Source: Escherichia phage HY01
Strand: one strand, 5' to 3'
Sequence record: NC_027349.1
DNA: 64,000 nucleotides
Shown here: positions 4,788-6,190 of the stretch, piece by piece
Layout: every line of letters starts with the position of its first letter
How positions within the stretch are numbered: the first letter of the stretch is position 1
Notes under the pieces: model-generated
Seen by the model: only the letters and a program-made list of their open reading frames with translations
Databases searched by the model: none
Told to the model about the DNA's origin: nothing
Position numbers and translations under genes: made by a program

Positions 4788-4863
4788 TGGTCGAGGCAGT
4801 AGGGATCGAACCTACGACCTAGGACTTAGAAGGTCCTTGCTCTTCCTTCTGAGCTATGCCTCG
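4788..4863 (-). tRNA. tRNA-Arg (anticodon UCU)
   Basis: cloverleaf by hand folding; anticodon loop CUUCUAA; T-arm GUAGG-UUCGAUC-CCUAC; CCA encoded. Confidence 0.85.
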
Positions 4864-4867
4864 GATT

Positions 4868-4942
4868 TGGCGGACGTGATAGGATTCGAACCTATAACCA
4901 ATCGCTTAACAGGCGATCGCTCTGCCATTGAGCTACACATCC
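4868..4942 (-). tRNA. tRNA-Asn (anticodon GUU)
   Basis: hand folding: acceptor GGAUGUG/CACGUCC, anticodon stem AUCGC/GCGAU, loop CUGUUAA. Confidence 0.75.
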
Positions 4943-4946
4943 AAAT

Positions 4947-5034
4947 TGGTGGGGAGTGATGGAGTCGAACCACCCGAGTCGCAATGACAATGGATTTACA
5001 GTCCACACCGCTACCTCTACGGAATAACTCCCCA
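4947..5034 (-). tRNA. tRNA-Tyr (anticodon GUA), type II with long variable arm
   Basis: anticodon loop GACUGUAAAUC matches the bacterial tRNA-Tyr loop; long variable arm; acceptor GGGGAGU. Confidence 0.8.
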
Positions 5035-5042
5035 AATTAATT

Positions 5043-5117
5043 TGGTGGCCCTGGGTGGAATTGAACCACCATCTGGCGATTATGAGTCGCTTGCTTGAAC
5101 CTTCCAGCTACAGGGCC
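5043..5117 (-). tRNA. tRNA with CAU anticodon (Ile lysidine-type by analogy to T4 tRNA-Ile, or Met)
   Basis: acceptor GGCCCUG/CAGGGCC; anticodon loop CUCAUAA. Confidence 0.75.
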
Positions 5118-5118
5118 T

Positions 5119-5194
5119 TGGTGCTGATTGACGGAATCGAACCGCCGACCTTCTCATTACAAGTGAGTTGCTCTACCTACTGAGCTAAATCAGC
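5119..5194 (-). tRNA. tRNA-Thr (anticodon UGU)
   Basis: acceptor GCUGAUU/AAUCAGC; anticodon loop CUUGUAA. Confidence 0.8.
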
Positions 5195-5199
5195 AAAAC

Positions 5200-5289
5200 T
5201 GGCGGAGGCGATAGGATTCGAACCTATGAGTCGCCGGAGCGACTGCCGGTTTTCAAGACCGGTGCATTAAACCACTCTGCCACGCCTCC
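5200..5289 (-). tRNA. tRNA-Ser (anticodon UGA), type II
   Basis: acceptor GGAGGCG/CGCCUCC; anticodon stem CCGGU/ACCGG, loop CUUGAAA; long variable arm. Confidence 0.8.
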
Positions 5290-5295
5290 AAATAT

Positions 5296-5904
5296 TTATA
5301 TATTGTTAATTTGATTTAGAATTCTTTTTGCTTGAGTATGACTTACGCCAATATGCTTAGCATATTTAGATAATTCACCACGCTTAGAAAAATCATATAA
5401 TTTAGAAATTTCTATTCTTCTTTTTCTTTCATCCGCAGAAACTTTTGCTTCGTTTGCTTTTGCTATTTTACGTTTAGCTTCTTGAGAATGAGTTTTACCA
5501 GCAAAGCCATTCTTCATTAATCCATTTGAAGACCATCCTTTTAATTTTCCGTTAGAATGTGCCTTTTTAACACCCAATGAAATTAATTCGCGTTGCTGAT
5601 CTGTCATAGGATAATTATTTATATGGTCCCATCCACCTTCACCTCCAAGTTTTAAATTATACACATCTGGTCTATTTAAAAACTCTTCTGTGACAATATT
5701 TTTCTCGGCTTCAAGCATAGATTCTTTATCATCAAAATACTCTAATATTTCTTTAGAAAAATTTTCTATACCATATTTATCTTGGGCTCTTTTTAATAAT
5801 TTACCAGAACCCATATATCCATCATCTAAATTTTCGGTAGAATGCACACCAATATAAATTTTATTATTAATTTTATTTGTTATTTTATAAAGATAAAAAT
5901 GCAT
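5296..5904 (-). CDS. segB: GIY-YIG homing endonuclease (Seg-type, segB-like position inside the tRNA cluster); 202 aa from ATG at 5904, track start 5946
   Basis: N-terminal FYLYKITNKINNKIYIGVHS (GIY...YIG), downstream conserved R, E and N positions; basic C-terminal DNA-binding region; GGGA RBS before 5904. Confidence 0.7.
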   Translation of the reverse strand: MHFYLYKITNKINNKIYIGVHSTENLDDGYMGSGKLLKRAQDKYGIENFSKEILEYFDDKESMLEAEKNIVTEEFLNRPDVYNLKLGGEGGWDHINNYPMTDQQRELISLGVKKAHSNGKLKGWSSNGLMKNGFAGKTHSQEAKRKIAKANEAKVSADERKRRIEISKLYDFSKRGELSKYAKHIGVSHTQAKRILNQINNI

Positions 5905-5950
5905 ATCAGTCCCTAATAAAGAACTGAGCGTCTCACGACGAGTCATAAAT

Positions 5951-6024
5951 TGGAGCGGATAATGAGAATCGAACTCACATCATCAGATTGGAAGTCTGAG
6001 GTAATGCCATTATACGATATCCGC
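5951..6024 (-). tRNA. tRNA-Gly (anticodon UCC)
   Basis: acceptor GCGGAUA/UAUCCGC; anticodon stem UCAGA/UCUGA, loop CUUCCAA. Confidence 0.8.
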
Positions 6025-6029
6025 AAATT

Positions 6030-6116
6030 TGGTGCGAGAAGTGGGACTCGAACCCACAAGGAAATCATTCCGCAGCATTTTAAGTGCTGTGCCTTTACCA
6101 ATTTGACCATTCTCGC
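6030..6116 (-). tRNA. tRNA-Leu (anticodon UAA), type II
   Basis: acceptor GCGAGAA/UUCUCGC; anticodon stem CAGCA/UGCUG, loop CUUAAAA; long variable arm. Confidence 0.8.
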
Positions 6117-6117
6117 G

Positions 6118-6190
6118 CTGGGAATAAAGGACTTGAACCTTTGCATCCTGGAATCAAAATCCAGTGCCTTACCAACTTGGCTAATTCCCA
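6118..6190 (-). tRNA. tRNA-Gln (anticodon UUG), CCA not encoded, 1 nt from tRNA-Leu (dimeric precursor arrangement)
   Basis: acceptor UGGGAAU/AUUCCCA; anticodon stem CUGGA/UCCAG, loop UUUUGAU. Confidence 0.8.

What the first reader, a model, noticed from the sequence alone, without database searches (positions are those of the whole stretch)
4788..6190. tRNA cluster with Tyr and Asn, no Pro, and a GIY-YIG endonuclease between tRNA-Ser and tRNA-Gly
Hand folding gives nine tRNAs in transcription order Gln(UUG), Leu(UAA), Gly(UCC), then the endonuclease gene, then Ser(UGA), Thr(UGU), CAU (Ile or Met), Tyr(GUA), Asn(GUU), Arg(UCU). The classical T4 set, as I recall it, is Gln, Leu, Gly, Pro, Ser, Thr, Ile, Arg. 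Here tRNA-Pro is absent at the position now occupied by the Seg-type endonuclease, and Tyr and Asn are additional. Homing endonucleases drive co-conversion of flanking markers, so the endonuclease may be linked to this repertoire difference.
Basis: partly seen in the sequence, partly recalled or inferred. Interest (0 to 1): 0.5.

Follow-up and report, generated by a model that had tools for sequence, protein, structure and literature searches.

The report
T-even tRNA operon with SegB-like endonuclease
This is the tRNA gene cluster of a T4-like coliphage in which a selfish SegB-family homing-endonuclease gene sits exactly where tRNA-Pro lies in sister phages; the same layout is already in reference genomes such as RB51, so it is real but ordinary.

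Summary

It is not new. RB51, RB68, Ac3, ESh24 and phiC600P9 have the identical order. About 54 deposited Tequatrovirus genomes carry the same gene.

- Loss of tRNA-Pro is tied to the endonuclease. RB14 and EPIMRB01, the window's closest relative, have Gln-Leu-Gly-Pro-Ser-Thr-Ile-Tyr-Asn-Arg and no endonuclease. The cassette replaces tRNA-Pro cleanly.
- Tyr and Asn are not additions made by this gene. Endonuclease-free phages have them.

Two further results came out of the check.
- The gene is a chimera. The 5'UTR and catalytic domain are 96-99% identical to T4/T6 SegB. The C-terminal DNA-binding half is unrelated (22-24%).
- That C-terminal type tracks tRNA-Pro in other phage genera: 9 of 12 contexts. 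The T4-type C-terminus always sits just upstream of tRNA-Arg (5 of 5).

I infer homing into the tRNA-Pro site of endonuclease-free relatives. No cleavage data exist for this variant.

The parts
6260..6284 (-). Candidate T4 middle (MotA-dependent) promoter of the tRNA operon: TGCTTTA (6284-6278), 12 nt, TATTAT (6265-6260)
   Evidence: Read directly from the sequence. The match to the MotA-box/-10 consensus is from general knowledge of T4 middle promoters. PMC2330249 states that a middle promoter lies just upstream of the T4 cluster. Inferred, not tested.
6117..6190 (-). tRNA-Gln (UUG)
   Evidence: ARAGORN; Rfam tRNA 67.3 bits
6030..6116 (-). tRNA-Leu (UAA)
   Evidence: ARAGORN; Rfam 59.3 bits
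5951..6024 (-). tRNA-Gly (UCC); its 3' end is the left boundary of the endonuclease cassette
   Evidence: ARAGORN; junction alignment A1
5905..5950 (-). 5' leader of the seg gene. A 9-bp hairpin (5906-5927) buries the AGGGA Shine-Dalgarno 3 nt before the AUG.
   Evidence: RNA fold -14.5 kcal/mol, z -2.3. The terminator-like scan picks out the same hairpin. The leader is near-identical in T6 segB and about 85% identical in Klebsiella phage KP13MC5-5, where the stem is kept through G-U and U-A changes. An analogous RBS-sequestering hairpin is described for T4 segB (PMC2330249, PMC2988022).
5617..5904 (-). seg gene, codons 1-96: GIY-YIG catalytic domain, T4/T6 SegB type
   Evidence: 99% aa identity to T6 SegB and 96% to T4 SegB. 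97.4-98.5% nt identity, ending abruptly at 5616. Pfam PF01541. I-TevI catalytic fold. Y6, Y17, G19, E67 and N83 are invariant in 25 homologues.
5296..5616 (-). seg gene, codons 97-202 plus stop: a different C-terminal module (NUMOD3-like helix plus C-terminal helix-turn-helix-like helices), presumed DNA-binding
   Evidence: 22-24% identity to T4/T6 SegB against 81% to KP13MC5-5. NUMOD3 scores 20.1 bits, just under the 20.4 cut-off. Model helices at 141-152, 157-167, 177-185 and 189-201. Only weak HTH fold matches. 100% identical in about 51 phage records.
5200..5289 (-). tRNA-Ser (UGA); its 5' end is the right boundary of the cassette
   Evidence: ARAGORN; alignment A1
5119..5194 (-). tRNA-Thr (UGU)
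   Evidence: ARAGORN
5043..5117 (-). tRNA with CAU anticodon, probably tRNA-Ile2 (lysidine-modified), T2L type
   Evidence: ARAGORN calls it Met. 100% identical to T2L 'tRNA-Met' and 61% to T4 tRNA-Ile. Best E. coli match, 81.6% over the full length, is annotated tRNA-Ile.
4947..5033 (-). tRNA-Tyr (GUA)
   Evidence: ARAGORN
4868..4942 (-). tRNA-Asn (GUU). Identical to the T2L tRNA-Asn gene, which contains the mapped preferred 27-bp cleavage site of T4 SegB.
   Evidence: ARAGORN; sequence comparison with T2L; site mapping in PMC2330249
4788..4863 (-). tRNA-Arg (UCU)
   Evidence: ARAGORN
4421..4771 (-). 116-aa ORF of unknown function, homologue of T2L 'trna.2' / RB51ncORF141c
   Evidence: ORF list; 94.9% nt identity to the T2L ORF; no Pfam hit
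4163..4423 (-). Small stable RNAs rnaD (species 2, 4309-4423) and rnaC (species 1, 4163-4303)
   Evidence: 96.5% and 97.9% identical to the annotated T2L genes; rnaC is 98.6% identical to T4's
4091..4114 (-). Intrinsic-terminator-like hairpin (10 bp, 7 G-C, then T-run) closing the operon
   Evidence: Pattern scan. PMC2330249 says T4 transcription ends after species I RNA.

Best explanation
The region is the tRNA operon of a Tequatrovirus (T-even phage). It runs on the - strand in this order: a middle-type promoter; tRNAs Gln, Leu and Gly; a free-standing GIY-YIG homing-endonuclease gene; tRNAs Ser, Thr, Ile2-like (CAU), Tyr, Asn and Arg; a small ORF; the stable RNAs rnaD and rnaC; and a terminator.

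The endonuclease gene is a mobile cassette of 42-nt leader plus 609-nt ORF. It replaces the spacer and the tRNA-Pro gene found at this position in endonuclease-free sisters such as RB14 and EPIMRB01.

The protein is a mosaic. Its leader and catalytic domain are the T4/T6 SegB type. Its C-terminal half is a different module, shared with endonucleases that sit next to tRNA-Pro in other phage genera.

Proposed mechanism, inferred by analogy with T4 SegB and I-TevI. In a mixed infection the enzyme binds, through its C-terminal module, a site in or beside the tRNA-Pro gene of a genome that lacks the cassette. It makes a double-strand break there. Repair from the cassette-bearing genome copies the cassette in and erases tRNA-Pro. 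The carrier genome is protected because the target is gone.

Expression is probably kept low in two ways. A hairpin hides the ribosome-binding site. The mRNA is also embedded in a tRNA precursor that is cut on both sides during tRNA maturation.

Shown here: the anatomy, the clean replacement, the mosaic structure, the presence/absence polymorphism, and the association with tRNA-Pro. Inferred: nuclease activity, the target site, and homing itself.
For: - **Anatomy:**
- **Identical arrangement in other genomes:** RB51, RB68, Ac3, ESh24 and phiC600P9, and with an extra tRNA-His in RB18 and NR1.
- **Empty-site alleles:** RB14 and EPIMRB01 have Gly-Pro-Ser-Thr-Ile-Tyr-Asn-Arg and no endonuclease. 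EPIMRB01 is the window's closest relative over 25 kb (97.2% identity). Gly-Pro-Ser is contiguous in 447 phage records. The window-type C-terminus is present at 95% identity or more in 54.
- **Clean replacement:** alignment A1.
- **Signature of mobility:** the cassette is 98.4-99.7% identical among carrier phages whose flanking ORFs are only 95-96% identical to the window. Cassette-free EPIMRB01 matches the flanking ORF 4421-4771 (99.4%) and the Gly-Leu-Gln block (100%) best, though not the Trna.2 ORF at 6288-6575 (94.4%).
- **Mosaic protein:** the N-terminal 96 aa are 99% (T6) and 96% (T4) identical, the C-terminal half 22-24%. The breakpoint lies at a shared CATATAAAT.
- **Catalytic competence is plausible:** Y17 and G19, whose mutation kills T6 SegB (PMC13096335), and the other invariant residues are all present. 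The fold is that of the I-TevI catalytic domain.
- **Slot follows the C-terminal type:** full-length homologues with the window-type C-terminus are directly flanked by tRNA-Pro(UGG) in 9 of 12 contexts outside Tequatrovirus. The T4-type C-terminus lies directly upstream of tRNA-Arg(UCU) in 5 of 5 contexts.
- **Precedent:** T4 SegB homes with nearly 100% inheritance. Its preferred cut is in tRNA-Asn, the gene its own cassette displaces (PMC2330249).
Against: - No cleavage or cross data exist for this variant. RB51's record even calls it a 'truncated SegB-like protein'.
- I found no endonuclease-linked SNPs in the flanking tRNA genes that would mark a co-conversion tract. The flanks are almost invariant.
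- Three of twelve homologue contexts lack tRNA-Pro.
- The twelve contexts are not independent. They form about seven arrangement types, four of them with Pro.
- T4 and T6 SegB cut many tRNA T-loops with relaxed specificity (PMC2330249, PMC13096335), so the slot could partly reflect history rather than specificity.
- Evidence that the C-terminal half binds DNA is weak. NUMOD3 falls just below threshold and the HTH fold hits have E above 1.
- In three other genera the homologue sits beside an intact tRNA-Pro, so deleting Pro is not needed for coexistence.
Confidence: 0.7

Rival explanations
1. The gene is a decaying, inactive relic of segB. The Pro/endonuclease difference is an old rearrangement inherited vertically, with no current mobility.
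For: RB51 and RB68 records call it a 'truncated SegB-like protein'. It is 202 aa against 221 aa for T4 SegB. No flanking co-conversion markers were seen. No activity data exist.
Against: The ORF is intact, and its C-terminal half is 99-100% identical in about 51 records. Homologues of the same length (196-208 aa) exist in other genera, so it is not truncated. All invariant catalytic residues are present. The cassette is better conserved than its flanks, and it is absent from the phage with the closest flanks.
Confidence: 0.12
2. It is functionally the same as T4/T6 SegB. It would recognise the generic T-loop motif GGTTCRANTCC of any tRNA gene with relaxed specificity, and its place next to the Pro slot would be a historical accident. 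The different C-terminus would not change targeting.
For: The catalytic domain is 96-99% identical. Seven of the nine tRNA genes here carry the motif. T4 SegB cuts all nine T2L tRNA genes tested. T6 SegB has 83 sites genome-wide.
Against: The C-terminal half is unrelated (22-24% identity). In I-TevI-type enzymes that half sets target binding (general knowledge; PMC2330249 discussion). The slot correlates with the C-terminal type: 9 of 12 beside Pro against 5 of 5 upstream of Arg.
Confidence: 0.2
3. The gene is kept because it benefits the phage. As shown for T6 SegB, its breaks seed tandem amplification of neighbouring tRNA genes, which lets the phage outrun tRNA-cleaving host defences. This is compatible with homing rather than exclusive of it.
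For: T6 SegB, with a 99% identical catalytic domain, is required for amplification of a tRNA-Tyr/segB unit under Septu pressure (PMC13096335). SegB homologues are enriched next to tRNA genes.
Against: Nothing in this window shows amplification: each of the nine tRNA species is present once. The enzyme here has a different C-terminus, and its neighbours are Gly and Ser, not Tyr. The replacement costs the phage a tRNA (Pro) rather than adding one.
Confidence: 0.25
4. One reading: the endonuclease brought Tyr and Asn in and removed Pro by co-conversion, so the whole repertoire difference from T4 is its doing.
For: Homing endonucleases do co-convert flanks. T4 SegB homing erases T2L tRNA markers.
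Against: RB14, EPIMRB01 and T2L have Tyr and Asn without this endonuclease. The Tyr/Asn difference from T4 maps to T4's own segB slot. Only the Pro difference coincides with this cassette.
Confidence: 0.05

Closest known systems
RB51 ORF142 / RB18 'segB' / AR1 'segD' (deposited Tequatrovirus annotations)
   Same: Same gene, 98-100% identical, in the same slot between tRNA-Gly and tRNA-Ser, with the same nine tRNAs in RB51.
   Different: Nothing material. The records disagree on the name ('truncated SegB-like', 'segB, C-terminus divergent', 'segD'). RB18's note that the location is conserved in T4 is not accurate.
T4 SegB (Brok-Volchanskaya et al. 2008, PMC2330249)
   Same: A free-standing GIY-YIG homing endonuclease inside the T-even tRNA operon. 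The catalytic domain is 96% identical. Both have an RBS-sequestering leader hairpin and lie within the tRNA precursor transcript. In both cases the cassette displaces tRNA genes present in sister phages.
   Different: Different slot: Ile|segB|Arg in T4 against Gly|seg|Ser here. It displaces Tyr and Asn rather than Pro. The C-terminal half is unrelated (24% identity), 221 aa against 202 aa in total. T4's leader sequence differs.
T6 SegB (Chihara et al. 2026, PMC13096335)
   Same: The leader and first 96 codons are 97.4% (nt) and 99% (aa) identical. Both lie in the tRNA cluster.
   Different: T6's gene lies between Tyr and Arg and has the T4-type C-terminus. T6 SegB has a demonstrated role in tRNA-Tyr amplification against Septu; nothing comparable is known here.
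Endonuclease between tRNA-Gly and tRNA-Pro in Klebsiella phage KP13MC5-5 (unannotated), KEN39 and Aeromonas phage Aes012
   Same: Full-length homologues with the same C-terminal type (81%, 60% and 39% identity). In KP13MC5-5 the leader is also the same. All start right after tRNA-Gly.
   Different: There tRNA-Pro is retained immediately downstream, with the ORF end overlapping its 5' end. In the window Pro is gone. Their catalytic domains are more diverged (52-74%).
I-TevI (intron-encoded GIY-YIG endonuclease of T4 td)
   Same: Two-domain plan: an N-terminal GIY-YIG catalytic fold (Foldseek probability 1.00), a linker, a NUMOD3-like helix and a C-terminal helix-turn-helix-like end.
   Different: The window's gene is free-standing, not intron-encoded. 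There is no detectable sequence match to any PDB chain. No zinc finger is evident. The C-terminal similarity is only suggestive.

Membership tests
GIY-YIG homing endonucleases (Seg / I-TevI type) | N-terminal GIY-YIG catalytic domain with the conserved Tyr, Tyr-x-Gly, Arg, Glu and Asn | tested here: met
   Pfam PF01541 at 26.8 bits, above the 22.6 cut-off. Y6, Y17, G19, E67 and N83 are invariant in 25 homologues. I-TevI catalytic domain fold, probability 1.00.
GIY-YIG homing endonucleases (Seg / I-TevI type) | Separate C-terminal DNA-binding domain (NUMOD3, helix-turn-helix) | tested here: inconclusive
   NUMOD3 at 20.1 bits against a 20.4 cut-off. Confident helices at 141-201 in the model, but HTH fold matches only at E above 1.
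GIY-YIG homing endonucleases (Seg / I-TevI type) | Presence/absence polymorphism among close relatives, with a cognate empty site | tested here: met
   RB14 and EPIMRB01 have tRNA-Pro instead. 447 records have contiguous Gly-Pro-Ser against about 54 with the gene. The cassette's distribution does not follow the relatedness of its flanks.
GIY-YIG homing endonucleases (Seg / I-TevI type) | Site-specific double-strand cleavage of the allele that lacks the gene, and biased inheritance in crosses | not testable with these tools
   Needs purified enzyme and phage crosses. No paper in the searched library reports either for this variant.
SegB proper (orthologue of T4/T6 SegB) | Homology over the whole protein, including the C-terminal target-recognition half | tested here: not met
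   The N-terminal 96 aa are 96-99% identical, but the C-terminal 106 aa only 22-24%.
SegB proper (orthologue of T4/T6 SegB) | Insertion slot immediately upstream of tRNA-Arg(UCU) | tested here: not met
   T4, T6, L008, L034 and L035 all have segB|Arg. The window has Gly|seg|Ser.
SegB proper (orthologue of T4/T6 SegB) | Recognition of the tRNA T-loop motif GGTTCRANTCC, with the preferred site in tRNA-Asn | not testable with these tools
   The motif occurs in seven of the nine tRNA genes, and the T2L-type tRNA-Asn is present unchanged. Whether this enzyme uses it is unknown.
T-even (Tequatrovirus) tRNA operon | tRNA cluster downstream of trna.4-trna.3-trna.2, followed by rnaD and rnaC, in a T4-like genome | tested here: met
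   The Trna.2 ORF is at 6288-6575. rnaD and rnaC are 96-99% identical to those of T2L and T4. The window is 95-97% identical to Tequatrovirus genomes over 25 kb.

The most novel reading that the evidence does not exclude
The C-terminal module of SegB-family endonucleases may act as an address label for one particular tRNA gene. The window-type module would address tRNA-Pro and the T4/T6 module the Asn/Arg junction. The same catalytic domain and leader would be re-targeted between slots of one operon by recombination at a shared CATATAAAT at the domain boundary. Rival cassettes would then each delete a different tRNA gene. That would make them the main engine of tRNA-repertoire turnover in T-even phages (7-10 genes). 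A T4 x RB51-type co-infection should show reciprocal homing at two sites only 700 bp apart.
Probability: 0.4. Interest if true: 0.45.

Novelty: already known. Interest (0 to 1): 0.22.

Why it matters
For a genome scan, this finding can be closed. It is a correctly read but standard T-even tRNA operon, and the identical layout has been in RefSeq (RB51) since about 2009.

The residual value is for homing-endonuclease specialists. Natural sister enzymes share a 96-99% identical catalytic domain but carry unrelated C-terminal halves, and they sit in different tRNA slots of the same 1.5-kb operon. That is a ready-made experiment on how GIY-YIG enzymes switch targets.

It also explains, tRNA by tRNA, why T4, T6, T2, RB14 and RB51 carry different tRNA sets. 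That has gained practical interest now that phage tRNAs and SegB are known to counter tRNA-cleaving defences such as Septu (PMC13096335).

Tried and rejected
- **Co-conversion tract.** I aligned five carrier and four non-carrier clusters and listed variable sites within about 350 bp upstream and 200 bp downstream of the cassette. No SNP segregates with the cassette. For example, 5219 G/A is mixed among carriers. The tRNA flanks are too conserved to carry signal. T4 and T2L were partly misaligned in the right half of that run.
- **Broad survey through IMG/VR.** Using the Trna.2 protein as anchor gave only 7 loci. They served as extra examples, not as a survey.
- **Sequence search of the PDB.** No hit even at E up to 1. 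Only the fold search found I-TevI.
- **Fold evidence for the C-terminal domain.** Only weak HTH and homeodomain-like hits (E above 1). Not used as proof.
- **Distant C-terminal-only relatives** (T2L trna.1, Citrobacter phage Ursula HNH, an Aeromonas phage 31 ORF). They have other or reduced N-termini and sit in other slots. Two Klebsiella phage hits lie outside annotated tRNA clusters. The Pro association therefore holds only for full-length GIY-YIG homologues.
- **Remnant of tRNA-Pro in the leader.** The leader shares GCTCAGTT with the D-arm, but the same leader follows tRNA-Tyr in T6. It travels with the cassette, so the idea was rejected as unsupported.
- **Sigma-70 promoter scan.** No enrichment: 10 found against 10.5 expected.
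- **Literature.** Three searches found no paper on the Gly/Ser-slot variant.
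Full report

Yes, completely. ARAGORN on the whole 64-kb window returns nine tRNA genes and no others, all on the - strand:
- Arg(tct) 4788-4863
- Asn(gtt) 4868-4942
- Tyr(gta) 4947-5033
- CAU 5043-5117
- Thr(tgt) 5119-5194
- Ser(tga) 5200-5289
- Gly(tcc) 5951-6024
- Leu(taa) 6030-6116
- Gln(ttg) 6117-6190

There is no tRNA-Pro in the window. Rfam's tRNA model matches eight of them at 59-74 bits; for tRNA-Tyr only a below-threshold match to the related tRNA-Sec model is listed.

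The only long ORF between Gly and Ser (5296-5946, - strand) passes Pfam's GIY-YIG threshold and has a near-threshold NUMOD3 hit. An AlphaFold model built on 25 homologues has mean pLDDT 83.7. Its N-terminal half superposes on the I-TevI catalytic domain (Foldseek probability 1.00).

One correction concerns the start codon. The 216-aa reading from 5946 is a gene-caller's artefact, and the real start is the ATG at 5904 (202 aa).
- T4 SegB, T6 SegB and every homologue begin MH(F/Y)Y.
- RB51 annotates 202 aa.
- In the Klebsiella phage homologue the upstream frame is closed by a stop codon.

**2. What genome is this, and is the arrangement new?**

The window is a Tequatrovirus (T-even phage). It is 95-97% identical over 25 kb to many deposited E. 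coli and Shigella phages. The closest is EPIMRB01 at 97.2%.

The 2.2-kb locus matches 55 records over at least 80% of its length. The same gene order, with nine tRNAs, no Pro, and the endonuclease between Gly and Ser, is annotated in RB51 (RefSeq NC_012635) and ESh24. RB68, Ac3 and phiC600P9 match the whole locus as a single collinear piece with the same kinds of features listed under the match. RB18 and NR1 differ only by an extra tRNA-His between Asn and Arg. A 2010 review already lists RB51 with 9 tRNA genes (PMC2993671).

**3. Comparison with T4, T6, T2L and RB14**

| Phage | Order in the cluster |
|---|---|
| T4 | Gln Leu Gly Pro Ser Thr Ile segB Arg rnaD rnaC |
| T6 | Gln Leu Gly Thr Ile Tyr segB Arg |
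| T2L | Gln Leu Gly Pro Ser [ORF trna.1] CAU Tyr Asn Arg [ORF] rnaD rnaC |
| RB14, EPIMRB01 | Gln Leu Gly Pro Ser Thr CAU Tyr Asn Arg, no endonuclease |

The window equals the RB14/EPIMRB01 arrangement with one change. In the alignment, homology runs through tRNA-Gly and a few bases beyond its CCA, stops, and resumes at the first base of tRNA-Ser. The spacer, tRNA-Pro and the 2-nt spacer are replaced by a 42-nt leader, a 609-nt ORF and 6 nt.

Tyr and Asn are therefore the common T-even state and have nothing to do with this gene. T4 lacks them because its own segB cassette lies where they would be. Only the loss of Pro belongs to the window's endonuclease.

Across the phage collection, Gly-Pro-Ser is contiguous in 447 records. 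The window-type gene occurs in about 54.

**4. The gene is a mosaic**

At the DNA level, window 5959-5616 is 97.4% identical to the T6 segB leader and 5' half. Window 5890-5616 is 98.5% identical to T4 segB. Similarity stops dead at 5616.

At the protein level:
- Residues 1-96 are 99% (T6) and 96% (T4) identical.
- Residues 97-202 are 22-24% identical to T4 and T6.
- The same C-terminal half is 81% identical to an unannotated ORF in Klebsiella phage KP13MC5-5 (Jiaodavirus), 60% to KEN39, 46% to Erwinia phage FBB1, and 39% to Aeromonas phage Aes012.

The breakpoint falls on CATATAAAT, which the window, T6 and KP13MC5-5 all share. RB18's record already notes 'C-terminus divergent'.

Catalytic residues are intact. 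These include Y17 and G19, whose mutation inactivates T6 SegB (PMC13096335).

**5. Evidence that the cassette moves**

Among carrier phages the cassette is 98.4-99.7% identical to the window's. Their flanking protein-coding ORFs are only 95-96% identical to the window's.

Cassette-free EPIMRB01 matches the window best in the downstream ORF 4421-4771 (99.4%) and the Gly-Leu-Gln block (100%), though its Trna.2 ORF is only 94.4% identical. So the cassette's distribution does not follow the relatedness of at least its downstream flank. That is expected for a homing element or for frequent recombination.

I looked for endonuclease-linked SNPs in the adjacent tRNA genes and found none. These genes are nearly invariant.

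**6. Which site does it target?**

This is inferred, not shown.

For T4 SegB the answer is known. It recognises a 27-bp site built on the T-loop motif GGTTCRANTCC. It prefers the tRNA-Asn gene of T2L-type phages, and it homes with nearly 100% inheritance while erasing the recipient's markers (PMC2330249). Its cassette sits where Asn would be.

I asked whether the window-type C-terminus goes with a particular tRNA neighbour. I checked twelve full-length homologues outside Tequatrovirus with ARAGORN.

| Arrangement | Loci |
|---|---|
| Gly - seg - Pro | KP13MC5-5, KEN39, Aes012 |
| Pro - seg - Ala | FBB1, L025, L032, L033 |
| Pro - seg - Gln | L022 |
| Pro(UGG) - seg - Pro(CGG) | L023 |
| No Pro next to the gene | L024, L030, L031 |

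That is 9 of 12, in clusters of up to 16 tRNA genes in the stretches fetched. The contexts are not independent: they make about seven arrangement types, four of them with Pro.

As a control, proteins with the T4-type C-terminus lie directly upstream of tRNA-Arg(UCU) in all five contexts examined: T4, T6, L008, L034 and L035. A third C-terminal type (P0051, 290 aa) sits between Ser and His.

More distant proteins share only the C-terminal module, on HNH-like or short N-termini. Examples are T2L trna.1, Citrobacter phage Ursula and Aeromonas phage 31. They occupy other slots.

My best reading is that the C-terminal module sets the address and that this lineage's address is the tRNA-Pro gene or the Gly-Pro junction. 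In Tequatrovirus the homing event, or a later deletion, removed Pro. That also removes the target from the carrier. I put about 0.55 on this step.

**7. Expression**

The gene lies inside the tRNA precursor transcript. A MotA-box-like middle promoter can be read upstream of tRNA-Gln: TGCTTTA at 6284-6278, then 12 nt, then TATTAT at 6265-6260. The consensus is from general knowledge, and PMC2330249 places a middle promoter there in T4.

The 42-nt leader folds so that a 9-bp hairpin (5927-5906) buries the AGGGA Shine-Dalgarno 3 nt before the AUG. The stem is kept in KP13MC5-5 through G-U and U-A changes. An equivalent inhibitory hairpin is described for T4 segB (PMC2330249, PMC2988022).

tRNA maturation would cut the RNA 4 nt before the leader and 6 nt after the stop codon.

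Downstream come tRNAs Ser through Arg, a 116-aa ORF, rnaD, rnaC and a terminator-like hairpin at 4114-4091.

**8. Relation to what is known, and verdict**

- **What it works like:** a free-standing GIY-YIG homing endonuclease of the SegB kind.
- **Whether it is a member:** membership in the GIY-YIG homing-endonuclease class is met on the catalytic domain and on the presence/absence polymorphism. It is inconclusive on the DNA-binding domain and untestable on cleavage.
- **Whether it is SegB proper:** it should not be filed as an orthologue of T4 SegB. The C-terminal half and the slot both fail that test.
- **Possible secondary role:** seeding tRNA-gene amplification against tRNA-cleaving defences, as in T6 (PMC13096335), is possible but has no support in this window.
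- **Novelty:** the arrangement and the gene are already in public reference genomes, and the phenomenon of an endonuclease reshaping the T-even tRNA set was published in 2008.
- **What may be new:** the link between C-terminal type and tRNA slot, with its bias towards tRNA-Pro. I did not find it in the searched literature. The 2026 survey reports no isotype preference for SegB homologues as a whole. This is a modest, testable refinement.
- **Interest:** low.

Noticed in passing
window 5293-5300 and 5616-5623, - strand: There are two copies of TATAAATA, the T4 late-promoter consensus. One overlaps the seg stop codon 4 nt before tRNA-Ser. The other lies exactly at the homology breakpoint between the SegB-type N-terminus and the different C-terminus. 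The motif occurs 26 times in the window against 9.5 expected. Either copy could drive late transcription of the downstream tRNAs.
   Followed up: partly
window 5043-5117, - strand: The CAU-anticodon tRNA is 100% identical to T2L's 'tRNA-Met' but only 61% identical to T4's tRNA-Ile, which T6 shares. T-even phages therefore carry two distinct CAU tRNA alleles. The best E. coli match (81.6%) is annotated tRNA-Ile, which suggests a lysidine-modified AUA reader.
   Followed up: partly
window 4868-4942, - strand: tRNA-Asn is identical to the T2L gene that holds the mapped preferred cleavage site of T4 SegB. This phage should therefore be a recipient for T4 segB homing, while T4 carries the tRNA-Pro that this phage's enzyme may target. 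None of the roughly 54 carrier records inspected shows both cassettes.
   Followed up: partly
window 4163-4423 and 4421-4771, - strand: The stable RNAs rnaD (T2L type; only the ends match T4's) and rnaC are present. So is a 116-aa ORF with no Pfam hit, which T2L, RB51 and EPIMRB01 have between tRNA-Arg and rnaD but T4 and RB14 lack.
   Followed up: partly
L015 584-985 (T2L trna.1); L026 1015-1494; L027 940-1407: Small ORFs inside the tRNA clusters of T2L, Citrobacter phage Ursula and Aeromonas phage 31 share the C-terminal NUMOD3-plus-HTH-like module (35-46% identity). Their N-termini are HNH-like or short. The same DNA-binding module is therefore shuffled between nuclease families.
   Followed up: partly
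L007 (T6, AP018814) 2257-3468: T6's cluster lacks both Pro and Ser: Gly is followed directly by Thr. Its segB is annotated 'serine recombinase'. AR1 and NR1 call the window-type gene 'segD', and KP13MC5-5 leaves its homologue unannotated.
   Followed up: no
L004 (RB18) 971-1160; L002 (NR1); L009 5248-5323: Some phages, with or without the cassette, have an extra tRNA-His(GUG) plus a spacer of about 115 nt between Asn and Arg. This is another indel polymorphism in the same operon.
   Followed up: no
L012 5580-5673: ARAGORN reports a 94-nt 'tRNA-Stop' with anticodon UUA (an ochre-suppressor-like call) downstream of tRNA-Arg in an IMG/VR T4-like contig that has only two ordinary tRNAs. It could instead be a miscalled rnaC/rnaD-like RNA.
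   Followed up: no
L023 1426-2185: In one metagenomic contig the homologue is flanked on both sides by tRNA-Pro genes: UGG upstream and CGG downstream, with the ORF end overlapping the downstream one.
   Followed up: no
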